From the NCBI GenBank assembly GCA_964016885.1, contig OZ024751.1:18104001-18168000 (forward strand): a DNA stretch of 64,000 nucleotides, given 5' to 3'. The position numbers were made by a program, and so were the translations under genes. The notes beneath the pieces are model-generated. The model ran no database searches. It worked only from the letters and a program-made list of their open reading frames with translations, and was not told where the DNA came from. Numbering within the stretch: the stretch's first letter is position 1; each line of letters opens with the position of its first letter. This stretch comes from Eledone cirrhosa (lineage: Eukaryota). Below, piece after piece: positions 1 to 53,854 of the stretch.

Positions 1-740
1 TGGACGCCATGCTTTCTAGCATAGTTACGTCCCTTTACGGTTTGAGTTCAAATCCCGCCGAGGTTAACTTTGCCTTTCATCCTTGCGGGGTCGATGAAGT
101 GAAGTACCAGTAATGTACTGGGTAATTGTTGGCCTTGTGCCTAAAGTAGAAACAATTATTTTACGGTGGATTGGCAGTATCGGTAGAGGGTTGGACGCCA
201 TGCTTAGCAGTATAGAGTTACGGCCCTTTACGGTCTGAATTCAAATCCCGCCGAGGTTAACTTTGCCTTTCATCCTTGCGGGGTCGATGAAGTGAAGTAC
301 CAGTAATGTACTGGGAAATTGCTGGCCTTGTGCCGAAAGTAGAAACAATTATTTTACGGTGGATTGGCAGTATCGGTAGAGGGTTGGACGCCATGCTTAG
401 CAGTATAGAGTTACGGCCCTTTACGGTCTGAATTCAAATCCCGCCGAGGTTAACTTTGCCTTTCATCCTTGCGGGGTCGATGAAGTGAAGTACCAGTAAT
501 GTACTGGGTAATTGCTGGCCTTGTGCCTAAAGTAGAAACAATTATTTTACGGTGGATTGGCAGTATCGGTAGAGGGTTGGACGCCATGCTTAGCAGTATA
601 GAGTTACGGCCCTTTACGGTCTGAATTCAAATCCCGCCGAGGTTAACTTTGCCTTTCATCCTTTCGGGGTCGATGAAATAAAGTACCAGTAATGTACTGG
701 GATAATTGCTGGCCTTGTGCTAAATGTAGAAACAATTATT
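1..740 (+). mobile_element. Head-to-tail tandem array of about 4 copies (~194 bp unit) of a tRNA-derived SINE
   Basis: The unit ggtggattggcagtatcggtagag...tcaaatcccgccgaggttaactttgcctttcatcc...aagtagaaacaattatt restarts at about 165, 358 and 551. A-box-like TGGCAGTATCGG and B-box-like G(A/G)TTCAAATCC are present. Confidence 0.9.
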
Positions 741-2919: not shown

Positions 2920-2986
2920 ATTTTTTATTATATATATTTCGGAGGTACTGTGCTGTTTTTTCACTACGTCCTCATCAGATAAAATA
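2920..2986 (-). ncRNA. Type I hammerhead ribozyme motif (mirror copy)
   Basis: Reverse complement reads ttttat-CTGATGA-GGACGTAGTG...CAGTACCTCC-GAAA-TATATA-TA-ATAAAA, with one stem II mismatch. Confidence 0.75.
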
Positions 2987-2990
2987 TATA

Positions 2991-3058
2991 TATTTTCTCT
3001 GATGAGGACGTACTGAAAAAACAGCACAGTACCTCCGAAATATATATAATAAAAAATA
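2991..3058 (+). ncRNA. Type I hammerhead ribozyme motif
   Basis: CTGATGA(2999-3005)-GGA-C-GTACTG-loop-CAGTAC-C-TCC-GAAA(3037-3040)-TATATA-T-A-ATAAAA. Confidence 0.8.
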
Positions 3059-25388: not shown

Positions 25389-25432
<44 letters not shown>

Positions 25433-25474
25433 TATTATTACTTTTTTTTTTTTTTTTTTTTTTTTTCCAATTCA

Positions 25475-28400
25475 ATGATGTTCCAGAACAATGTAAACGA
25501 GATAATTGCCAATTTGGGTTCTGGAACAAAAAGGATCATTGGCAATAAGGGCAGGGGCCCCAAGTTATCACAACCTGGGCCCGCCCGTCATCGTGCCATT
25601 GTAATAGAGCCAAACAGGGCATTTAGTCTTGGCTGCTGGAACGTACGGACGCTGCTTGACAGGGATTCTTTGGAGCGTCCTGAACGAAGGACCGCTCTTG
25701 TTGCGAAGGAGCTTCGACGTTACGATCTTGACATCGTGGCTTTGTCTGAGACGAGGTTAGCTGGAGATGGTCATCTTACGGAATTTTGTGGAGAATATAC
25801 ATTCTTCTGGAAAGGAAGAGATGAAGGAACCAGAAGAGAGGCTGGGGTAGGATTTGCTGTTAAGACTGTACTGGTGAATAAATTAGAAGAATTCCCAGTG
25901 GGGATTAGTGAGCGTCTTATGTCCATGAGAGTTCCGCTGGACAAGGGAAGATATGCTACCCTGGTGAGTGTGTATGCTCCAACTATGAATTCTGTCGATG
26001 AAGAAAAACTGTCCTTTTACCATGCCTTGAAAGGTGTTTTAAGAAATATCCCTCAGGCAGACAAAGTCATCGTGCTTGGTGACTTTAATGCTAGAGTGGG
26101 TAGGGATTTTAACACATGGAATGTAATCGGAAGGCATGGGGTGGGAAAGTGTAACAGCAATGGTATGCTCTTGCTGCAGATGTGTGAGGAGCTGGATCTG
26201 TGTGTTACCAACACCATGTTCCAACAAAAGAACAAATTCAAGACCACATGGATGCATCCTGCATCTAAGGAATGGCATCTTTTGGACTACGTCCTAGTCA
26301 GGATGCGTGACAGACAGGATGTGCAGTGTGTTCGTGTTCTTCGTGGAGCTGAGTGCTGGACGGACCACCGCCTGGTACGCGCAAAAGTGAATCTAATCAC
26401 CAAACGTAAAATCCGGGCTCCTGGTGTTGCCCTGCCCAAAAGATTGAATGCTGCTCGTCTTAAGGATAAAAATGTGAAGAGGACATTGGAAGAAGAGATG
26501 CAGGCTGCAGATCTTGGTGAGGATTGGCCGACCCTTAAAAAGTCGGTTTATGATGTAGGCAGACGTGTTCTGGGATTGGTGCAGAGAAAACATCAGGACT
26601 GGTTTAATGAGAAAGATGTGCATATAGATGACTTGTTGGCTGATAAGAGGCGCGCTCTGTCACGCTACTTGACGGCAAAACCACAGGAGAGGAATACGTT
26701 GCATGAGGAGCTCAGGGATGTAAAATCACGTGTTAGGCGGAGTCTTTCTCAGATGAAGGATCAGTGGTGGAGTGAGAAGGCTGGTGAGATACAAACTGCG
26801 TCTGATTGCAATAACACAAAGCTGTTGTACAGTCTCTTGCGTGAGGTTTATGGACCGTCTTCTTCTCTGATGACACCGATTCGCAGCAGGGATGGCAAAG
26901 AACTTCTTCGTGACTCACAGGGAATTCTACGAAGGTGGCGAGAGCACTTTGATGATCTTTTGAATCAGCCGTCTGTCGTCAGTGAAGATTTCCTCAATCT
27001 CATTCCGGAAAGTCCTGTGAAAGTAGCTCTCGCAGAACCTCCGACACTTGTGGAGGTTGCAGTGGCTATTTCGAAGCTGAACAGTGGAAGATCTCCAGGT
27101 ATGGATGGCATACATGCTGAGCTCCTACAATATGGTGGTGAGAGACTCCTGCAACATCTTCACTCTCTGTTTGGAAGGATATGGGCTAATGAATCCGTGC
27201 CTGAGGACTGGAGAGATGCAGTAATGGTGGTCTTGTACAAGGGAAAGGGTAACAGGAATGATTGTGGGAACTACAGAGGTATATCATTGCTTTCTGTCGT
27301 GGGGAAAGTTTTATGTAGGGTGCTTCTGGACCGTCTGCTGACACACATTGCAGATTGTGTCCTTCCTGAAAGTCAATCTGGTTTTCGTGTTGGACGCGGC
27401 ACTACTGATATGATCTTCTCAGCTAGACAGCTCCAGGAGAAGTGCATTGAACAGGGCTTGGATCTGTATCAGGTTTTTGTCGATCTGACAAAGGCTTTCG
27501 ATACTGTCAACAGAGATGCATTATGGAAGGTTCTCCAGAAACTTGGTTGCCCTGATAAGTTCCTTGCTTTAGTTAGGTCTTTCCATGACGACATGAAGGC
27601 TTGGGTTAATGTCGGAGGTAACATGTCGGAGCCTATCTCAGTAAAAAATGGAGTGAATCAGGGGGATATTCCAGCACCGACCCTGTTTGCCATATACTTT
27701 GCAATGGTTTTCTGTATTGCATTCAGGAATTGCGAGCATGGTGTTTACATCCGATATCGAACCTCAGGCAGCATATTTAACATCAGGCGCTTTGCTGCGA
27801 AGACAAAAGTATTTACATCAGTCATAAGAGACCTCTTGTATGCAGATGATTGCGATCTTGTAGCGCACACAGAGAGTGATATGCAGCACATTTTGAATGT
27901 ATTTTCTGACGCTTGCACTGCCCTGGGTTTGACTGTCAGTCTCAAGAAAACCGTCGTCATGTACCAACCTGCACCTGGTGGGCAGTACACTGAACCAAAC
28001 ATCTATGTGTATGGCAAACGACTTGGAGTGGTTGATCAGTTTGTCTACCTGGGAAGCACTGTCAATCGATACGGCAACCTTGACAGTGAAATCTCACTTA
28101 GGATTAGGAAAGCAAGTGATGCTTTCGGAAAGCTAGAAAGGCGACTCTGGGGTCGGCGAGACATATGCAGGAGGACAAAGGTAAAGGTGTACAGGGCATG
28201 TGTACTCTCTTGTCTTCTTTATGCCTGCGAGACCTGGGTCACATATCGACGCCACCTTAAGCAATTGGAGCGTTTCCATCAGATGTGTCTCAGACGGATA
28301 CATGGCGTTCACTGGAGGGACCACATCAGTGATGTCGAGATTTTGGAAAGCTCTATGTGTGACAGTATAGAAGCTCTTGTGCTTAAGCAGCGACTCCGTT

Positions 28401-29014
28401 GGAGTGGTCACCTTGCCAGGATGAAGGATTCTAGAATACCAAAACAACTCTTCTATGGAGAGTTGGTTAAAGGAAAACGACCGCCACATAAACCAAAAAA
28501 GAGGTATAAGGATTCCTTGAAGGCCTCTCTGAAAGACGCTAACATCTCTGCTGATACATGGGAAAATATTGCTGCTGATCGTAGTAAATGGAGAAAGACT
28601 GTATATGAGGGAAAAGTTGAGGCATCTCGAATCGCACACGAGAAAGTAAGGCGGGACGTGAGGAAGGGTATTGCTGTTGCACTTCCAGACGGCGAGGGTC
28701 CTCCTATGTTTCTGACATGCAGCGTCTGTGCGAGACTCTGCCTAAGCAAAGCTGGACTCGAAAGTCATCTTCGCAGTCATAAAGTAAGACCAGTGGTTGA
28801 CTACCAGGCTGCTGTTGGAGATGCTACTCATCATGCTTGCCAAACATGTGGTAGAGAATGTAAATCAGCAGGAGGACTCAAGCGACATGCAAAAGTACAC
28901 GAACTCCAACCACAGCCGACTATTCCCAGTAAATGTTTTGGTTGCCGACTCTGTGCAAGACATTTTAGATCATTGGCTGGGCTAAAAAGCCACATTCGAT
29001 CGCAGCACTGTTAG
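25475..29014 (+). CDS. RTE-clade non-LTR retrotransposon protein: AP endonuclease + reverse transcriptase + 3 C2H2 zinc fingers (1179 aa)
   Basis: APE motifs WNVRTL, ALSETR, VYAPT, LGDFNARVG, LDY, TDH; RT motifs NYRGISLL, QSGFR, FVDLTKAFD, QGDIPAP, LLYADD, YLGS; three C-terminal CxxC...HxxxH fingers. Confidence 0.95.
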   Translation: MMFQNNVNEIIANLGSGTKRIIGNKGRGPKLSQPGPARHRAIVIEPNRAFSLGCWNVRTLLDRDSLERPERRTALVAKELRRYDLDIVALSETRLAGDGHLTEFCGEYTFFWKGRDEGTRREAGVGFAVKTVLVNKLEEFPVGISERLMSMRVPLDKGRYATLVSVYAPTMNSVDEEKLSFYHALKGVLRNIPQADKVIVLGDFNARVGRDFNTWNVIGRHGVGKCNSNGMLLLQMCEELDLCVTNTMFQQKNKFKTTWMHPASKEWHLLDYVLVRMRDRQDVQCVRVLRGAECWTDHRLVRAKVNLITKRKIRAPGVALPKRLNAARLKDKNVKRTLEEEMQAADLGEDWPTLKKSVYDVGRRVLGLVQRKHQDWFNEKDVHIDDLLADKRRALSRYLTAKPQERNTLHEELRDVKSRVRRSLSQMKDQWWSEKAGEIQTASDCNNTKLLYSLLREVYGPSSSLMTPIRSRDGKELLRDSQGILRRWREHFDDLLNQPSVVSEDFLNLIPESPVKVALAEPPTLVEVAVAISKLNSGRSPGMDGIHAELLQYGGERLLQHLHSLFGRIWANESVPEDWRDAVMVVLYKGKGNRNDCGNYRGISLLSVVGKVLCRVLLDRLLTHIADCVLPESQSGFRVGRGTTDMIFSARQLQEKCIEQGLDLYQVFVDLTKAFDTVNRDALWKVLQKLGCPDKFLALVRSFHDDMKAWVNVGGNMSEPISVKNGVNQGDIPAPTLFAIYFAMVFCIAFRNCEHGVYIRYRTSGSIFNIRRFAAKTKVFTSVIRDLLYADDCDLVAHTESDMQHILNVFSDACTALGLTVSLKKTVVMYQPAPGGQYTEPNIYVYGKRLGVVDQFVYLGSTVNRYGNLDSEISLRIRKASDAFGKLERRLWGRRDICRRTKVKVYRACVLSCLLYACETWVTYRRHLKQLERFHQMCLRRIHGVHWRDHISDVEILESSMCDSIEALVLKQRLRWSGHLARMKDSRIPKQLFYGELVKGKRPPHKPKKRYKDSLKASLKDANISADTWENIAADRSKWRKTVYEGKVEASRIAHEKVRRDVRKGIAVALPDGEGPPMFLTCSVCARLCLSKAGLESHLRSHKVRPVVDYQAAVGDATHHACQTCGRECKSAGGLKRHAKVHELQPQPTIPSKCFGCRLCARHFRSLAGLKSHIRSQHC

Positions 29015-29375: not shown

Positions 29376-31287
29376 ATGGCGGAGCCACGCCCCCTAGAGG
29401 CGGGTCTGCTGTCGTGCAACGGCGACTTGAGCGTTGAGAGGAGAGGTGAGGCGAGGAGCGCCACCAGCACGAATGTGAGCAGCGACAGTGCCAGCACCAA
29501 CGGGCCGAGCGGCGCGGAAGGTGGTAACAGCGACAACACCAACACCAACAAGCCGAACAGCGCAGAAGGTGGTAATAGCGAGAGCACCAACAAAACGAAC
29601 AGCACAGAGAGTAATAGTAGCGACAGCAGCAGCACCAACAAGGCCAACAGCACAGAAGGTAACCACGACACAGGGGAGAACAACAACAGCAATAGCAGCA
29701 GCAACACCAACAAGAACAACAACAGTGACAACACCAACAAGAACACTTTCGCTGCTGTGGCAGCGGCTAAAAGGAGACCATGCTACAGCATCGACTTAAC
29801 CAACAGAGAGGAAAAGTTGGCCCAGGCCTGGAAAATCATAAATCAAGAGCAGACCTGGGCAAACTTAACTGTCCCGGCAGAAGCCATTGAGGCAGTGGAA
29901 AAAAGAACGGTGCATTTCAGATGCATCTCAGTAGAGACAAAGAGGGCAGCGATAATCGCCCAAGCTGACATAGAAGCCGCACTGAAATACATCAGAGAGG
30001 ACACAGACTTCATAGAAAGGGGCAGGCAATACGGCACCGTTTCGGTGCTGTTCAAGTCTGAAGCCCTCGCTGTGAAGCATTCAATGACCCCTTGCAAAAC
30101 CAGCAAGGTCATAATGTACCCCTCCCACATGGGAAAACGAATAGCACGTGTGCGCATTCCCAGGATTCCACCAGGACTTGATATGTGGTGGCTCCTGGGT
30201 TGCGTAATCGTGGAAGGAACGGATACAGTCCCGGTAGAGGCAACGAGAACTGCCAGGGACGACTGGTCCGGGGTTGATCTGGAGATACTGCTCCAAATCA
30301 GACCCGAAAACGTAAAAACAATCCCGGACCACATCCGCCTCCAAAACGGGAGGGTGTTGCATATAATGACTGAGGGCAAAAGGCCGCATTGTTTCCTTTG
30401 TGGGGAAACGACACACTTGCGAGCCTTCTGCCCTCAACTGCCGAAAAGCGCAAGGGGTCGAAAGATTCCACTGCTGGCGACGCCGGGACAAGGACCACCA
30501 GCAACACCGTCAACAATGGAACCACCAAAATTGCACACCCAGGGGGGAAACGAGGAAAGCTCTCCCATTCCCCCTCCCCCCCAAAATACACACACGAACA
30601 AGAACATAAACACTCACTCAGACACAAACACGCTCACAGCCACAGACCCCTCATCCTCCAGCAGTGAAGATGAGGGAAAACCAAAGTCCCCCAAAATACA
30701 AAAAACAAAACACAAAAAAAAAAAGAAATCCACAAAGCACAAACACCCCCACAAAAAAAAATACACACACCACCCACACAAACATTTTCCCCACAGCATC
30801 ACCAACACAACCACCAAAATCCCCCAAACGCAAACAAGCTAAACAGACACAAGAACAAATAGACACACAAACATCAGAAACTACAGACACCCCACCCACA
30901 ACAAACGCAGACACAATAGAAACAACACTAACAAAGCTATCACCACCACAATCACACGAACAAATAAAACCCGAGCAACAAAACATTAAAAACTTCGTGC
31001 TTGCCAGAAGGGCCAACAAGGAATTGATGGCCCATGTAGCACGAAGCACAAACATCGAAAAAGACGGGGAAACATTTGAAGCGAGCACATTTCGCGTACC
31101 AGATAATTTGCTTCTGATGCGAATGTCGCTCGCTTCATACAAAGAAATTCGAAAGAGCTTTCCTCGGGATGTGGGAACCCCGAACGTAAAACCCACGTCA
31201 AGACTATTAAAGGGGTTCCCAAAAGAAACCCCACAAACCATGGAGGTCGAACCACCCGACCTTCACAAGACCCCGGAAGGTAAGTAA
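29376..31287 (+). CDS. Tx1-type ORF1 (gag-like, CCHC knuckle), split by an apparent frameshift near the A11 run at 30714-30724
   Basis: ORF 29376-30842 has an S/N-rich N-terminus and CFLCGETTHLRAFC; it overlaps ORF 30664-31287, which ends just before ORF2. Confidence 0.75.
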
Positions 31288-31316
31288 ACCTTTCCTCTCC
31301 CATTCATCCTGCCAGC

Positions 31317-34300
31317 ATGGCCATAAGAGTAGGAAGTTTAAATGTTCGTGGCCTGGGGTCGCCCTGGAAGCAAGGTCACTTGCTCAACGACCTCAGGTCA
31401 CTAGGAATGGATGTAATTGCCATCAGCGAGACCAGAATTTCCGACACACGCGCACTGGCGCCGATTTTCGACGATTATCAGATCTTTGCATCTGTTAGTC
31501 GGCCGGGAATGGGAGGTGGAGTGGCTGTGCTGTTTAGGAAATGTCTGGATCTCGAGGTAAGGTCAATCTTCCGGGATCCTGACGGAAAGTTGGTGGTCCT
31601 GGACGTGAGCAATAGCGAAGGTGGTGCCTTTAGACTGGTGGCCGTCTACGCCCCTACTGGGGCCGGTCGGCCGGACTTCTTTAGGCGCCTGGAAAACTTT
31701 CTGCTTACGTCTCGCCCTTTACTGTTAATAGGGGATTGGAATGGCATCTTAGAAGCACGCTGGGATTGTGTGGGAGTATCTGATAGGAGCGGGGGGTGCA
31801 AAAGCCTCAAGTACCTGATCAGCCAGTTTCAACTGTCTGACAGGTACCGACTAGATTTCCCTAATGCGCCAGTATGGACCTGGACCAATCGCATAGGGTC
31901 ATCTAGATCGTACATAGATAGGATTTTCATTAGGAAAAGAGATAGAAATAGTGTAGGATGTCCACATTTTAAAACGGTTGCCTATTCAGATCACAAGCTT
32001 GTGATCTGTATGGTCGACCTAGATAAGACACGTAGGTTAGGACCTAGCTACTGGAAGCTAAACATGTCGTTTCCGGCACGTAAAGCTTACAGGGACCGGG
32101 TCAACAACTTAGTTAAGCAAAAGTTGACAGGGGGGGTTGTCAACAACAGGTGGTGGGGGGCACTCAAAAGAGAGATTAGAGCAACCTCGATAGGATTTAG
32201 CAAAGAAGTAGCAATAGAGAAAAATAGAAAGGAGGAGGGGCTGATAGCTAAGTTAGACGAGGCTATTTGTAGTGGCATTGCAACAGACGTGCTAGCGGCG
32301 AGAATGGCACTAGACCATTTCTTCAATGCGAAACACGAAGGTTGCATTGTCAGAGCTAAAGCGCGTGCTCTGAGGAACGAGGGAACCAAAGCTGCCCGAT
32401 GGGCTCGCTTTGCAGAGACGCAGCGTGGAAATAAAACCACAATTCGGTCTTTGACGGATCGAGATGGACACGAACTGAGCGATTCCAAGCAGATGTGTGA
32501 GGCCTTTCGCCAGCACTTTGCTCGATTGTTCGGGAGGATGGGTGAGTCGGAGACGGCGGCGGACTTCAGTCCCTACCTCGACGGCTTGCCACGCCTCTCG
32601 ACGGCCGACGCTGAGCGCTGCGAAGAGCCGATAACATCAGCCGAAATTCAGGACGCCCTTGTCGGCTGCTCGAGTCGCAAGTCACCCGGTTTGGATGGTC
32701 TGCCCTACGAGCTTTACGTAAATATGCCAGACTTGTTCTCCGATCTCCTCGAAGCGCTCTACTGCAACTGGCAGCAGAACGAGAGCATTCCCAGTTCTGT
32801 GAGCCGTGGCGTAGTGACGCTGATAAGGAAAGACGAGAACAAGAGGGACACACTAGATAATTTCAGGCCCATAACCCTGCTCAACACAGAGTTTAAGATT
32901 TTGGCCAAGGTGTTAGCGAAAAGGTTGGCGCTTGTCGTCAAAGATTTGGTTGGGGAGGCGCAAACTTGCGCAATCCCGACCAGGTCCATACACGACAACC
33001 TCCACCTCATGCGATACATCATAGAGAGGGTTGGGTGCAAACCTGGCTTCGGTGGGGCTCTGATCAATTTAGATCAATCGAAAGCATTCGATAGGGTCGA
33101 CCATCGGTACTTGGAGGCTGTCCTCGAGGCGGCTGGCTTCGGCCCCGTCTTCAGAAGCTGGATCGCTGCAATGTACAGCGGCATCCGCTCGGTGGTCAAA
33201 GTTAATGGCCACCTCTCGGAACCGTTTCAGATCTCTCGATCGGTCCGTCAAGGGTGCCCTCTCTCCTCACTTCTGTACGTATTGACTCTTGAGCCTCTAC
33301 TGCGGAAGCTGGAGTTGTTGCAGGGCATCCCGCTCGAACCGGGACGTAGAAAGGCTGCGTCCGCTTATGCGGACGACATCACCGTGATGGTGTCGGACAC
33401 CTCGGAAATCGAGGTGATCCGCACCCATTTGGAGGAATATGAAAGGTTGACGGGAGCAAAACTTAACCCGGAAAAGTCGGTGGGCTTGCAGCTCGGCACC
33501 TGGAGAGGCAAGTCCATGCCGTCCAACAGCGTCGTTGGGCGCTGGACAGACGGACCGGTAAAGTTGCTCGGGGTTTGGTTCGGACCAGACCTCCAGGTGG
33601 ATAAGAATTGGGACGAGGTGACGAGCAGGATAGCCAACCTCACCCAGAAATGGGCTGAGAGAAAGCTATCACTGAAAGGGCGGGCGGAGGTGGCGAACGC
33701 GTACATCGCGTCCGTCATCTACTACCGCCTGACCGTCGTGCCTTGCCCCCGTCCACGCCTCGCCAATTTGGAACGGCTCCTTTTCAAATTTTTGTGGAGG
33801 GGACGGGTCCCGTTGGTGAGGCGGTCCATCTGCTGCCAGCACCCTCTTCGTGGAGGGCTGGGCATGCCGTGGCTAATGATGCGCAGACATGCGCTGAGGC
33901 TGCGACATCTCCAGATATTTTGCCTAAACGGTGAACAGGTGTGGTCGCCGTTTGTTAGACGGGCCTTTCCGCAGCTCATCTCTTTGACTGAGCTGCAGTC
34001 CTGGGTCAAGAAGAGACCGAGACTGGGCGACTGGCATCTGGAATGTTGCCAGGCGCTCACTGCACTCTGCAAGGTGGGCAATGCGGTCAGTGGAACTTCC
34101 ACTCAAGATTTCTATAGAGGATTAGTGGAGGGCAAGTGCGATGACGTACTAGGAGAGGCTCTGGGCGTCAACGAAGTAGAACTGACCAGTATGTTCCGGA
34201 GGACTTTCGAGCCGGGGACGATGGATAACTTCCAGAAATCCCTCGCTTGGCAGTGCTACCGGGGGGCGCTGCCGGTTCGGGATAAACTCTACAGGCACGG

Positions 34301-34736
34301 AAGTGCTGTCAGACGAACCTGCCCGAGATGCGCGCAGAGCGACGAAACCGTTCTGCACGCACTCGTCCAGTGTCCGTGCATTGCTGACTTGTGGGGTTAT
34401 GTCGAACAGCTATTGTCGCGTGTAGAACGGATCCGGCTATCGTCCGAGTCCATAGTGAAGATTGACCCGCCGCCTTCTTTTGGTCAGGAAGGGCAGGCAA
34501 TTTTCCTCTGCCTGGTGGCAGTAGCGAAAGAGGTTGCATGGTGGACCAGGTTGAAAGGACTGAAGACAGACACTTTTCTCTTCGGCCAATCCCTCATCAA
34601 CTTCTTCAAGTTTCACTTGGAAAGGAAGGTGAGGGTGGAGAGAGAAGTGCTGCCCCCCAGTACATTTACTGAAAGGTGGGTGAATGTGGCGAGAATGGCC
34701 CGCGTGAGTGGGCCTACTCTGATCATGCGCCTGTAG
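31317..34736 (+). CDS. Tx1/L1-clade ORF2: AP endonuclease + reverse transcriptase + C-terminal zinc knuckle (1139 aa)
   Basis: SLNVRGL, ISETR, VYAP, GDWN, YIDRIF, SDH; KSPGLDGLP, FRPITLLN, LDQSKAFDRV, VRQGCPLS, AYADD; CPRC...HALVQC. Confidence 0.95.
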   Translation: MAIRVGSLNVRGLGSPWKQGHLLNDLRSLGMDVIAISETRISDTRALAPIFDDYQIFASVSRPGMGGGVAVLFRKCLDLEVRSIFRDPDGKLVVLDVSNSEGGAFRLVAVYAPTGAGRPDFFRRLENFLLTSRPLLLIGDWNGILEARWDCVGVSDRSGGCKSLKYLISQFQLSDRYRLDFPNAPVWTWTNRIGSSRSYIDRIFIRKRDRNSVGCPHFKTVAYSDHKLVICMVDLDKTRRLGPSYWKLNMSFPARKAYRDRVNNLVKQKLTGGVVNNRWWGALKREIRATSIGFSKEVAIEKNRKEEGLIAKLDEAICSGIATDVLAARMALDHFFNAKHEGCIVRAKARALRNEGTKAARWARFAETQRGNKTTIRSLTDRDGHELSDSKQMCEAFRQHFARLFGRMGESETAADFSPYLDGLPRLSTADAERCEEPITSAEIQDALVGCSSRKSPGLDGLPYELYVNMPDLFSDLLEALYCNWQQNESIPSSVSRGVVTLIRKDENKRDTLDNFRPITLLNTEFKILAKVLAKRLALVVKDLVGEAQTCAIPTRSIHDNLHLMRYIIERVGCKPGFGGALINLDQSKAFDRVDHRYLEAVLEAAGFGPVFRSWIAAMYSGIRSVVKVNGHLSEPFQISRSVRQGCPLSSLLYVLTLEPLLRKLELLQGIPLEPGRRKAASAYADDITVMVSDTSEIEVIRTHLEEYERLTGAKLNPEKSVGLQLGTWRGKSMPSNSVVGRWTDGPVKLLGVWFGPDLQVDKNWDEVTSRIANLTQKWAERKLSLKGRAEVANAYIASVIYYRLTVVPCPRPRLANLERLLFKFLWRGRVPLVRRSICCQHPLRGGLGMPWLMMRRHALRLRHLQIFCLNGEQVWSPFVRRAFPQLISLTELQSWVKKRPRLGDWHLECCQALTALCKVGNAVSGTSTQDFYRGLVEGKCDDVLGEALGVNEVELTSMFRRTFEPGTMDNFQKSLAWQCYRGALPVRDKLYRHGSAVRRTCPRCAQSDETVLHALVQCPCIADLWGYVEQLLSRVERIRLSSESIVKIDPPPSFGQEGQAIFLCLVAVAKEVAWWTRLKGLKTDTFLFGQSLINFFKFHLERKVRVEREVLPPSTFTERWVNVARMARVSGPTLIMRL

Positions 34737-49212: not shown

Positions 49213-49594
49213 ATATATATATATTTATATATATATAAATATTTATATATATATATATGTGTATATATAAATATTTATATATATATATATGTGTGTATAT
49301 ATATATTTATATATATGTATATATATATATGTGTATATATATATATATATTTATTTATATATATTTATTTATATATATTTATATATATATATTTATTTAT
49401 ATTTATATATATTTATATTTATATATATATTTATATATATGTATATATTATATATATGTATATATATGCATATATATTTATATATATTTATATACATATT
49501 TATATATATGTATATATTATATATATGTATATATAAGCATATATATTTATATATATTTATATACATATTTATATATATGTATATATTATATATA

Positions 49595-50818
49595 TGTCAC
49601 AAACTACACGGACTCGGCATAACTGGAAAAGTAGGTGAGTGGCTGCATGGCTTCCTGAGGGACAGAAGCCAGGCAGTCGCAGCAAATGGGGCCCTCTCGA
49701 GGGAAACACCGATAACAAGTGGGGTGCCTCAGGGGACAGTCCTAGGACCACTACTGTTTTTGGTGGCTCTCTCGGACATGCCCTCTGTGGTGCATGCAAC
49801 AACATCCCTCACTAGCTATGCTGATGACACTAAGGTAGCACAGGCAATCAAAAACCCGGCTGACGCTGCCCTCTTACAGCAGGATCTGGATGCCATATAC
49901 AGATGGGCGGAAGAAAACAACATGCAGTTTAATGCTGGCAAATTCCAAGCCCTACAATACAAACCTGCAAACACAAACACAAATATAGCGGAACACAGCT
50001 ACACAGGACCAGGAGGGACCGATATCCCCGTGTCAAAATCGATACGAGACCTGGGCATAGACATGAGCGATGATGCATCTTTTTCTTCACACATCATGAA
50101 GGTGGCGACAGCATGTAGACGATTCGCTGGCTGGATCTTGAGGACTTTCCTTACAAGAGATCGAGACACCATGTTGACACTGTGGAGGACTTTTGTCCTA
50201 AGCCGCCTGGACTACTGCTCCCAGCTGTGGTCACCCTATAGTGTCAAACTAACCACAGAGCTTGAGGCAATCCAGCGAAGCTACACCAAGAGGATTGCCA
50301 AGATGAGGGAGACAAGCTACTGGGAGAGGCTGAAGGAACTGAACCTCTACTCCTTGGAGCGAAGACGGGAGAGATACGCAGTGATCTACATGTGGAAAAT
50401 CCTGGAGGGACTAGCACCAAACTTTGGCATTGGGAGCTGGACCAACCGTCGAACAGGACGTCACTGTGTGGTGCCAAAGGTCCCGTCTTCCACATCTAGA
50501 ATAAGGAGCAGGTATTGCAATAGCCTGGGATTCAAGGGCCCTCAACTCTTCAACAGGCTGCCGAGGCATCTGCGAGACTTGCATGACGTGGAGGTGGATG
50601 TCTTTAAGAAACATCTCGACACCTTGTTATCCAGGATCCCGGATGAGCCCACAGCAAGACACGAGGGAAACCTAAGGGCAGCAGCAACAAACTCCCTCCT
50701 ACACCAGTGGCCAACCTATACAGGCTGGAGATAAAATGTGTAGCAACAAGGGCGGTGCCCCAGCATGGCCTCAGCCGGATGGCTGAAACAGGTAAAAGAG
50801 TAAAAGAGTAAAAGAGTA
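49595..50818 (+). mobile_element. 5'-truncated CR1-like LINE with open RT C-terminal frame (to 50734) and (GTAAAAGA)n tail
   Basis: [46 protein letters not shown]; 3' UTR ggtgccccagcatggcc...gctgaaac also at 62140-62193 (-) and about 7830. Confidence 0.9.
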
Positions 50819-53081: not shown

Positions 53082-53344
53082 ATACGATATATTAACAAAT
53101 GGAAACTATATTTATAAAACCATATTTATTTCATTATACATATTTCAAGGATACCAAGTTATCCGGGAGCTTCCAACAGAAATGGTCGCATTCTTTAAGG
53201 GTATGTCAATATTTATTTATAAAACTGATCTATATTATATTTTATCTGATGAAAGCACACCATAATTTAACTTGGTGTCCTTGAAATATGTATAATGAAA
53301 TAAATATGGTTTTATAAATATAGTTTCCATTTGTTAATATATCG

Positions 53345-53347
<3 letters not shown>
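53082..53347 (+). mobile_element. Penelope-like remnant: hammerhead-bearing repeat with a partial inverted copy at its 5' side
   Basis: 53082-53161 is the reverse complement of 53268-53347; the internal part is homologous to 2667-2850. Confidence 0.8.
53238..53302 (+). ncRNA. Type I hammerhead ribozyme motif
   Basis: TATTTTAT-CTGATGA(53246-52)-AAG-C-ACACCA-loop-TGGTGT-C-CTT-GAAA(53283-86)-TATGTA-T-A-ATGAAATA. Confidence 0.8.
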
Positions 53348-53375
<28 letters not shown>

Positions 53376-53665
53376 AATCACATTGGCATATGGTTGGACA
53401 ATACATGTGTCCCTAAGCGCTTTGTGCGTGTAGGGACATATACTTTATTATTATTATCTCCTCTTGGTTGAGAAAAAATTTGGTCGTTCTGACTGCTGCT
53501 AGTTATAGCGGGAGCAGACTGACCTCCCTGCCTTTGCTTCTATCTTTACACACGGCACTTGAAGGAATTGCTTCCACTTCATTTATTCTCATCTCGGGAA
53601 TAATTTTGAATAGCGCCAGTTCGTAATTTGAACTCGGGAATTTTATATTCTCCGAGTGAAAAGAT

Positions 53666-53749
53666 CCTTCTGACGAGAGTTTATATTTGCAATGGATGCT
53701 GTATGGACCGTCCGTTTAATTTTGAGACTCGAAACCGATTCGGTAAAGG
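53666..53749 (+). ncRNA. Canonical type I hammerhead ribozyme with extended stem II
   Basis: CCTT-CTGACGA(53670-76)-GAGTTT...AGACTC-GAAA(53731-34)-CCG-att-CGG-T-A-AAGG; predicted GUA cleavage after 53745. Confidence 0.85.
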
Positions 53750-53819
53750 TAACCAGAGTAGGTAAAGTTAATTTTTTTTAATTTATTTTGAAACTTTTTT
53801 TTATTTGCTAAACCTTGAT

Positions 53820-53854
<35 letters not shown>

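What the first reader, a model, noticed from the sequence alone, without database searches (positions are those of the whole stretch)
53666..53749. Best-formed hammerhead: full canonical core, monomer-competent stem III, long stem II
Seen: CCTT/AAGG stem I, CUGACGA, GAGTTT/AGACTC stem II extended by AATGGATG/CGTCCGTT, GAAA, ACCG/CGGT stem III and a GUA triplet. Its sequence is unrelated to the other motifs. It lies in a ~440 bp unique segment (about 53375-53820) bounded by (TA)n on both sides. Inference: a likely active ribozyme in a retrozyme-sized element.
Basis: partly seen in the sequence, partly recalled or inferred. Interest (0 to 1): 0.7.

Follow-up and report, generated by a model that had tools for sequence, protein, structure and literature searches.

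The report
Knot-braced hammerhead in jumping repeat
This is a complete hammerhead self-cutting RNA motif inside one shortened copy of a 483-base non-coding repeat found thousands of times in this animal genome; the repeat is likely pasted into TA microsatellites by Penelope-type retrotransposons, and its hammerhead is predicted to be braced by an unusual extra helix that this particular copy has damaged.

Summary
The hammerhead is there as described (type I, intact core; 1 of 200 shuffled windows gives one). The segment is not unique. It is a 5'-truncated solo copy (449 of about 483 nt) of a non-LTR retrozyme family: 2,602 exact core matches in the genome against 0 in the control, and arrays of up to 9 units. 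Copies sit in (TA)n and end at two fixed points, about 80 and 190 nt after the cut site. In 37 of 40 head-to-head insertions one arm ends at each point. That is the signature of Penelope-like elements; the partner element was not found. Across six diverged lineages, the strand 5' of stem I stays complementary to an internal loop of the long stem II, with different letters. This predicts a pseudoknot whose layout I could not find in print. This copy has a private change that breaks it. Stem III is near-palindromic, so dimer cleavage is as plausible as monomer cleavage. Cleavage, expression and circles are untested; no RNA run was listed. The scan has noted long-stem-II, twin-armed retrozymes before, in this genome and another. 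Verdict: a variant of a known kind.

The parts
53374..53822 (+). 5'-truncated solo copy of the ~483-nt retrozyme unit (unit positions 35-483)
   Evidence: 94% to the full unit of tandem locus L019; best other copies 95%
53345..53373 (.). (TA)n target, 5' side
53823..53852 (.). (TA)n target, 3' side
   Evidence: 39 of 46 terminal ends are followed by a TA run
53373..53381 (+). 3' arm only of the conserved bulged hairpin that follows the main 3' end point in full units (candidate protein-docking site, inferred); its 5' arm is lost by truncation
   Evidence: 7 pairs kept in 12 of 12 sequences of lineages A-E, F, G and I; 2 pairs change on both sides
53440..53456 (+). second end point of the family (about +190 nt from the previous cut site; 'tail' end); internal in this copy
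53632..53657 (+). hairpin just 5' of the ribozyme, kept in subfamilies A-E
   Evidence: 88.7% of cells paired; 2 of 10 pairs change on both sides
53658..53663 (+). leader strand of the predicted pseudoknot (GAAAAG)
53666..53749 (+). type I hammerhead: stem I 4 bp, core CUGACGA and GAAA, 54-nt stem II domain, stem III 4 bp, GUA triplet
53685..53690 (+). internal-loop strand of stem II, partner of the leader; private C>A at 53685 leaves only 3 Watson-Crick pairs in a row
   Evidence: 38 of 39 sister copies have C
53734..53744 (+). stem-loop III, palindromic around one central base (dimer-capable)
   Evidence: sequence; family survey
53745..53746 (+). predicted cleavage site, between these two bases
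   Evidence: hammerhead numbering (established knowledge); not shown by experiment
53815..53826 (+). main 3' end point (+76 to +80 from the cut site): a short internal TAT tract that runs into the (TA)n target; inferred start of reverse transcription
   Evidence: 38 of 46 terminal ends

Best explanation
The motif is an intact type I hammerhead in a 5'-truncated solo copy of a ~483-nt non-coding repeat with thousands of TA-embedded copies, which is likely a non-LTR retrozyme copied by the enzymes of a Penelope-like (probably Neptune-type) retrotransposon. Shown: the motif, the copy number, the tandem unit, the (TA)n sites, two fixed 3' ends, variable 5' ends, and head-to-head arms that pair one end of each kind. 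Inferred steps: (1) Tandem arrays are transcribed and the hammerheads cut them into monomers. A leader/internal-loop pseudoknot would hold stems I and II side by side (about 0.75), and the palindromic stem III would allow two ribozymes to work as a pair. (2) The monomer is likely ligated to a circle, in which downstream sequence unfolds stems I and III (circle about 0.55, uncut multimer about 0.35). (3) The borrowed protein would nick (TA)n, anneal it to short UAU tracts 80 and 190 nt past the cut site, and copy leftwards through that site; two enzymes, one on each target strand, would give the twin-armed insertions (about 0.7). This copy is one short, older product. It would probably cut slowly in vitro and is unlikely to make circles.
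For: Motif and chance. Copies: 2,658 first-look candidates, 40 scored, 86 matches; 2,602 exact core-pattern matches against 0 for the reversed pattern. Tandem unit and a 9-unit array. Stem II covariation: 6 of 7 pairs. Ends in copies chosen by core pattern only: of 67 ribozymes, 21 run on; of the 46 terminal ones, 38 end at about +80, 7 at +180-194 and 1 at +41. Twin arms: 47 of 147 insertions; 37 of the 40 with both ends at the two sites are mixed, against 19.9 expected. One purified Penelope-like protein (PAc) cuts and extends both strands, starts inside the RNA at two sites, and is predicted to be a dimer (PMC11167929, parts 1-2 of 4 read). Units of one array are near-identical: 7 of 8 monomers in L111 are identical; the two in L129 are identical while the nearest other locus differs at 27-30 sites. 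Only 2 of 37 5' ends lie within 5 nt of the cut site, so the template was not usually broken there. Pseudoknot: own-lineage pairing is the best of 720 pairings of six lineages in two picks; 8 of 14 loci fetched after the windows were fixed have 4 or more Watson-Crick pairs in a row, p = 0.001; 1 of 112 viral chance matches has 5 or more, against 139 of 193 genomic copies. GIY-YIG elements abound (10,597 candidates, 150 scored), and one near-complete element with a C-X4-C-X2-C linker also ends at an internal TATA tract in (TA)n (L161).
Against: No cleavage, expression or circle was observed. No autonomous element with this unit in its terminal repeat was found among 90 partly overlapping GIY-YIG loci (BLAST on 50; profile search on all 90). 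In one search the count of pairs changing on both sides (9) did not beat the shuffles (7.6; 134 of 500 as high), and stem III shows no two-sided change. Pseudoknot pair 2 is an A-G mismatch in 93 of 163 copies, including the young, abundant subfamily D. For the A2/D group the pairing does not beat letter shuffles, because both strands are low in complexity (subfamily A itself was missed by my pattern there). On the tree the two covarying pairs amount to only about three events within A-E. Six of 14 held-out loci failed the fixed-window test. In PAc, hammerhead cleavage was not needed for insertion in vitro, uncut RNA was the main substrate, and the start site was not homologous to the cut DNA; this differs from steps 2 and 3. 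Rare variants show no A>G excess on the sense strand (21 against 20 T>C).
Confidence: 0.8

Rival explanations
1. Same element and partner, but the template is an uncut multimeric or read-through transcript. The hammerhead only trims transcripts (or needs the protein to fold), and circles play no part in copying.
For: PAc inserts uncut RNA and its ribozyme needs the protein (PMC11167929). With 30 nt of downstream sequence, stem I of this copy is predicted at only 0.02, and the family median cost of the active fold is 5.3 kcal/mol. Two units of L019 share a C3>U core change, which a strictly self-cut circle would not easily pass on.
Against: The core is kept exactly in 2,602 + 2,710 pattern matches. 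Array units are identical while the nearest other locus is far (L129), which fits repeated passes round one monomer. Circular monomers fold better than shuffles (z = -2.3 to -4.3, 4 of 4 tested, 20 shuffles each). Circles are documented for coral, mussel and axolotl retrozymes (PMC7229834).
Confidence: 0.3
2. The segment is a solo terminal repeat (pLTR) left by an autonomous Penelope-like element that was not sampled, not a free-standing non-coding family.
For: Hammerheads sit in pLTRs and many are dispersed (PMC4209133, passages). Retrozymes are related to pLTRs in Xenopus (10.64898/2026.07.22.740005, section 14). L161's pLTR ribozyme shares stem I (CCUU/AAGG) and the end of stem III.
Against: In the 40 subfamily A loci, whatever family sequence lies 5' of the main unit is more of the same unit, direct or inverted, and the printed flanks are mostly (TA)n, with no shared unique sequence (these flanks were not searched for reading frames). 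Pure arrays reach 9 units. None of 90 GIY-YIG loci carried the unit as its own end.
Confidence: 0.1
3. The leader/loop complementarity is not a pseudoknot of the active ribozyme. It is either chance between a purine-rich and a pyrimidine-rich strand, or a nested hairpin that forms first and delays folding of the core.
For: Low-complexity strands cross-pair between lineages (off-diagonal runs of 5-6). The A-G mismatch in subfamilies A and D. The same two strands could close a 17-20-nt loop over the 5' half of the core.
Against: Position and register relative to the core are constant across lineages with different letters (GARAAR/YUUYUC, GGAAA/UUUCC, GAGY/RCUC, GGAAAA/UUUUCC, GAGAAU/AUUCUC). The helix uses no base of stems I-III. 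Paired contacts between stems I and II are common and raise the rate (PMC3088659, passages).
Confidence: 0.25
4. A satellite or DNA-level repeat (spread by recombination or slippage) that happens to contain a hammerhead-like motif.
For: Tandem arrays exist. Fold energy of the isolated motif is ordinary.
Against: Fixed 3' and variable 5' ends, dispersal over many chromosomes, one-of-each twin ends, and stem II covariation.
Confidence: 0.03

Closest known systems
Animal non-LTR retrozymes (Cervera and de la Pena 2020, PMC7229834, parts 2-3 of 6 and passages read; Li, Clavereau and Pollet 2026, 10.64898/2026.07.22.740005, part 1 of 5, section 14 and passages read)
   Same: Non-coding tandem unit with one type I hammerhead per unit; GC under 50% (0.34-0.40); monomers, dimers and multimers; Penelope-like elements in the same genome; short, palindromic stem III.
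   Different: Unit 483 nt, above the 150-450 bp of the first paper but within the 51-972 bp of the second. Stem II domain 54 nt with an internal loop, not a 4-bp stem with loop-loop contacts. Mostly dispersed partial tandems with inverted arms in (TA)n. The mussel ribozymes are said to lack the usual tertiary contacts; their figure (Supplementary Figure S4) was not seen and may show something similar.
Endonuclease-bearing Penelope-like elements, Neptune and Naiad clades (Craig et al., 10.1101/2021.04.23.441226, passages read); PAc (Frangieh et al. 2024, PMC11167929, parts 1-2 of 4 read)
   Same: 5' truncation, partial tandems, inverted 5' arm, a tail usually on one end only, insertion into microsatellites, two internal start points downstream of a hammerhead.
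   Different: No reading frame. The tail is about 110 nt, not 30-40. Both start points are short TAT tracts that match the target, whereas the PAc start site is not homologous to the cut DNA. The ribozyme is larger than the minimal pLTR hammerheads (PMC4209133, passages read).
Pseudoknotted hammerheads (Perreault et al. 2011, PMC3088659, passages read; type III motifs of toad and termite HDV-like RNAs, PMC7936874, passages read)
   Same: Watson-Crick pairing between the far ends of stems I and II in place of loop-loop contacts. In the HDV-like motifs the 5' strand of an internal loop in a long helix is one partner.
   Different: Mirror image and another permutation: here helix II is the long one and its internal-loop 5' strand pairs with the single strand 5' of a 4-6-bp stem I, in type I. 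Not found in the passages read; Figures 2B and S4 of Perreault et al. could not be seen.

Membership tests
Type I hammerhead ribozyme | Core C3 U4 G5 A6 N7 G8 A9, G12 A13 A14 A15, U16 H17 | tested here: met
   core criteria as listed in PMC3088659
Type I hammerhead ribozyme | Stems I, II and III paired next to the core, stem I open-ended | tested here: met
   stem II base covaries (6 of 7 pairs), stem I 1 of 5, stem III 0 of 3
Type I hammerhead ribozyme | Match to an Rfam hammerhead model | tested here: not met
   none at E up to 10; probably because of the long stem II (inference); not a defining feature of the chemistry
Type I hammerhead ribozyme | Site-specific self-cleavage | not testable with these tools
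   needs in vitro transcription
Animal non-LTR retrozyme | Short non-coding tandem unit with a type I hammerhead in each unit | tested here: met
   family level. This copy is a truncated monomer, so it is not 'active' by the two-unit rule of Li et al.. No ORF of 150 aa overlaps it.
Animal non-LTR retrozyme | No LTRs; GC under 50% | tested here: met
   PBS and PPT were not searched separately
Animal non-LTR retrozyme | Expressed as monomeric linear and circular RNA | not testable with these tools
   one search listed no RNA holder; laid only contigs of one sample
Animal non-LTR retrozyme | Stable, highly self-paired circle | tested here: inconclusive
   56-65% paired, z = -2.3 to -4.3 in 4 of 4 natural monomers (20 shuffles each)
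Non-autonomous element moved by a Penelope-like element | 5' truncation, partial tandem, inverted arm, tail on one end, microsatellite target | tested here: met
Non-autonomous element moved by a Penelope-like element | Sequence shared with the terminal repeat of an autonomous partner | tested here: inconclusive
   none in 90 GIY-YIG loci out of 10,597 candidates; only stem I and the end of stem III match L161
Autonomous Penelope-like element | RT + GIY-YIG reading frame | tested here: not met
   units and arrays without such a frame
Pseudoknotted hammerhead | [quoted passage not shown] | tested here: met
   family level. Not met in this copy (3 pairs in a row).
Pseudoknotted hammerhead | Rate depends on the pairing | not testable with these tools
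   needs mutagenesis

The most novel reading that the evidence does not exclude
This genome holds a superfamily of at least 5,000 hammerheads of an undescribed architecture (type I, long bulged stem II, braced by a pseudoknot from the 5' leader to the internal loop) that the Rfam models miss in this copy. They ride RNA circles that a dimer of Penelope-like reverse transcriptases copies from two fixed UAU tracts at once, primed by microhomology to nicked (TA)n DNA, with a conserved bulged hairpin as the docking site. That would give a small, defined RNA substrate for the unresolved Penelope mechanism and for rolling-circle retrotransposition.
Probability: 0.35. Interest if true: 0.7.

Novelty: new variant of a known kind. 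Interest (0 to 1): 0.45.

Why it matters
The class is known, so the single motif is ordinary. Two things add value. First, the genome supplies natural compensatory variants of a hammerhead layout I could not find described, plus a natural knock-out (this copy), so the tertiary contact can be tested with a few short transcripts. Second, the insertion ends give strong in-genome support (37 of 40) for two enzymes starting at two fixed points of one RNA and extending both target strands. Of the papers I read, only the in vitro work on PAc shows two start points and both strands. How Penelope-like elements make tandem and inverted copies, and whether retrozyme circles are the template, are open questions that a 483-nt substrate makes testable.

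Tried and rejected
Rfam: no ribozyme match near the motif. The whole-window scan listed 150 of 405 matches, all miRNA models, apparently on microsatellites. RNA evidence: no RNA holder listed; the three runs laid are contigs of one sample and one study, possibly the source of the assembly, so they are not used. My guess that this copy's private changes favour an inactive fold was wrong: it ranks better than 44 of 50 sisters. A-to-I editing scars (lead e1-8664076): no asymmetry among rare variants of 40 subfamily A units; such variants are mostly post-insertion, so the test is weak. Pile-up of 5' ends at the cut site (lead e1-8664355): 2 of 37. Autonomous partner: not found; retrozyme copies beside such elements in L162, L169, L236 and L259 are separate insertions in the adjoining (TA)n; the profile hits in L171 and L262 were judged by position only. 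The window's own RT frames are LINE-type, two of three with an APE endonuclease match; rejected as partners on end structure, not by test. The MAFFT alignment A1 puts the loop strand of subfamily A one column off, so the pseudoknot was counted by anchors in scripts, not; 95 of 111 clustered sequences went into A1 (truncated or redundant ones dropped by eye). A too-short gap or lazy match in my patterns left out all or most of subfamily A. The permutation (16 related clusters) is not independent and is not relied on. One search had one misplaced row and was repeated. Viral contigs: 112 pattern matches in the 120 stretches returned (scan stopped at its limit), none with stems I and II. Target-site duplications cannot be read inside (TA)n. 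Literature searches for this architecture or for cephalopod retrozymes gave no description; figures and supplements were not seen and may bear on the novelty claim.

Full report
Observation. A strict type I descriptor finds this one site in the window and a hit in 1 of 200 block-shuffled windows. The 84-mer alone is not unusually stable (z = -0.09), and Rfam returns no hammerhead here. Three other window motifs found by a relaxed scan are of a different, minimal kind, and the unit has no second copy in the window.

The element. The segment between the two (TA)n tracts is a repeat of the 3.0-Gb genome: 2,658 first-look candidates, 40 scored, best others 95% identical. Tandem loci show a unit of about 483 nt, of which the window holds positions 35-483. 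Subfamilies at 68-74% identity to it were found beside two copies and searched in turn. A core pattern gives 2,602 exact matches against 0 for the reversed pattern, including arrays of 4 and 9 units. A looser pattern that excludes those gives 2,710 more against 8. These include lineages with units of about 460-470 (F) and 655-735 nt (G); two more lineages (H, I) turned up beside other elements. Lineages A-E, F, G and I share a bulged hairpin just after the main 3' end: 7 pairs kept in 12 of 12 sequences, 2 changing on both sides. Earlier notes of the scan call the genome octopus-like; I did not test that.

The ribozyme is under selection. In 95 aligned copies, 6 of 7 pairs at the base of stem II change on both sides, 1 of 5 in stem I and none of 3 in stem III. 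Cells paired (89.8%) and the covariation score beat all 500 shuffles, but the count of two-sided pairs does not (9 against 7.6), and related copies inflate such tests. Stem-loop III is a palindrome, or one around a central base, in 81 of 103 motifs with many different letters (subfamily A was missed by that pattern, but its sequence is of the second kind). Palindromic helix III is the known mark of hammerheads that can cut as pairs (PMC4209133, passages), although most invertebrate ones also cut as monomers (PMC7761336, passages).

A predicted pseudoknot. I saw by eye that the six bases 7-12 nt before the core are complementary to the 5' strand of the internal loop of stem II. In 163 copies of A-E, pair 3 is kept in 157 (123.6 expected if independent) and pair 6 in 152 (126.9), but pair 2 in only 66, being A-G in 93; on the tree this is about three compensatory events. 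Across six lineages with different letters, own-lineage pairing is the best of 720 pairings in two picks of representatives; the windows had been set after seeing A-G. In 14 loci fetched afterwards, 8 have 4 or more Watson-Crick pairs in a row (p = 0.001). Of the six misses, three show by eye a longer match just outside the window, one pairs through G-U, and two have a branched stem II and no match. Chance matches in viral contigs have 5 or more pairs in 1 of 112 cases, genomic copies in 139 of 193 (copies are not independent and base composition differs). For the A2/D group the pairing does not beat letter shuffles. Such contacts are common in hammerheads and raise the rate (PMC3088659, passages); the nearest layout I found is the mirror image in HDV-like type III motifs (PMC7936874, passages). 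I put its formation at about 0.75.

This copy. It differs from nearly all of 39 sisters at six places in the ribozyme region, one of them C>A at 53685 in the pseudoknot, which leaves 3 pairs in a row. Without pseudoknots, the model gives stem I a probability of 0.61 with 6 nt of downstream sequence and 0.02 with 30 nt, because an alternative hairpin takes over; even so the copy ranks better than 44 of 50 subfamily members. So cleavage would be a short-lived, co-transcriptional chance. With one ribozyme and a truncated 5' end, the copy cannot release a monomer. It is a product of the family, not a likely source.

How copies are made. In copies chosen by the core pattern alone, 46 terminal ends fall at about +80 (38), +180-194 (7) or +41 (1) from the cut site, nearly all on a short TAT tract, and 39 run into (TA)n. 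Of 147 insertions, 47 have two arms head to head; in 37 of the 40 with both ends at the two sites there is one of each (19.9 expected; 7 twins with other ends left out). Earlier notes of the scan (e1-8665707, e1-8664019) prompted this count. Part of the sample came from queries ending at +76, which favours the first site but does not set the other arm. Truncation, partial tandems, inverted arms, a one-sided tail and microsatellite targets are the marks of Penelope-like elements (10.1101/2021.04.23.441226, passages). The purified PAc protein extends both strands from two internal sites (PMC11167929). The genome is rich in candidates. L161 is near-complete, has the cysteine linker that the passages give for Neptune (also seen in Nematis and Naiad), carries a small hammerhead in both terminal repeats, and ends the same way about 140 nt past its cut site. 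No element sharing this unit was found in 90 loci, so the partner is inferred.

Circle or multimer. Copying starts 80 nt past the cut site and runs through it, often more than once, and only 2 of 37 5' ends lie at that site. A cut linear monomer therefore cannot be the usual template. A circle fits the identical units within arrays, the stable circular folds and the circles shown for other animals (PMC7229834). An uncut multimer fits the PAc result and the shared core change in two L019 units. No RNA data were available.

Verdict. Real motif; member of the non-LTR retrozymes on every feature I could test at family level, with expression and cleavage untested. The ribozyme layout appears to be a variant not described in what I could read (searches; figures and supplements unseen). 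Interest 0.45.

Noticed in passing
window 53246-53300 (+), 39925 (-), 2978 (-), and by eye 2755 (+) and 2999 (+): Minimal type I hammerheads of other families with short AT-rich palindromic loop III; the one at 53246 ends in the same (TA)n that precedes the retrozyme, and 2941-3035 is an inverted pair.
   Followed up: no
L161 (both terminal repeats), L162:5598-5636, L166, L170, L172, L249: A Neptune-like element whose hammerhead has the core variant U3-A8, the same stem I as this family and a 4-bp stem II.
   Followed up: partly
L162:6001-6918, L169, L236, L259: Retrozyme copies of lineages F, I and G inserted in the (TA)n at or near the 3' end of Penelope-like elements; nesting in shared targets could be mistaken for terminal repeats.
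   Followed up: partly
L275, L277: Hammerheads with a branched stem II domain and no leader match in the tested window; a different architecture.
   Followed up: no
L271-L274: A lineage in which the leader/loop match is up to 9 nt long and starts further upstream (seen by eye).
   Followed up: partly
L019:1267-1421 and 1750-1904: Two adjacent units share a C3>U change in the core that the third unit lacks.
   Followed up: no
L111, L112, L129, L130: Very young arrays of subfamily D (0-3 differences between units in L111, L112 and L129), suggesting recent or current activity.
   Followed up: partly
window 25391-29014, 31284-34736, 49271-50734 (+): LINE-type frames: two of 1,207 and 1,150 codons with APE endonuclease and RT, one truncated RT.
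   Followed up: no
window 1-740: Tandem repeat of period 193, 3.8 copies, 96% alike.
   Followed up: no
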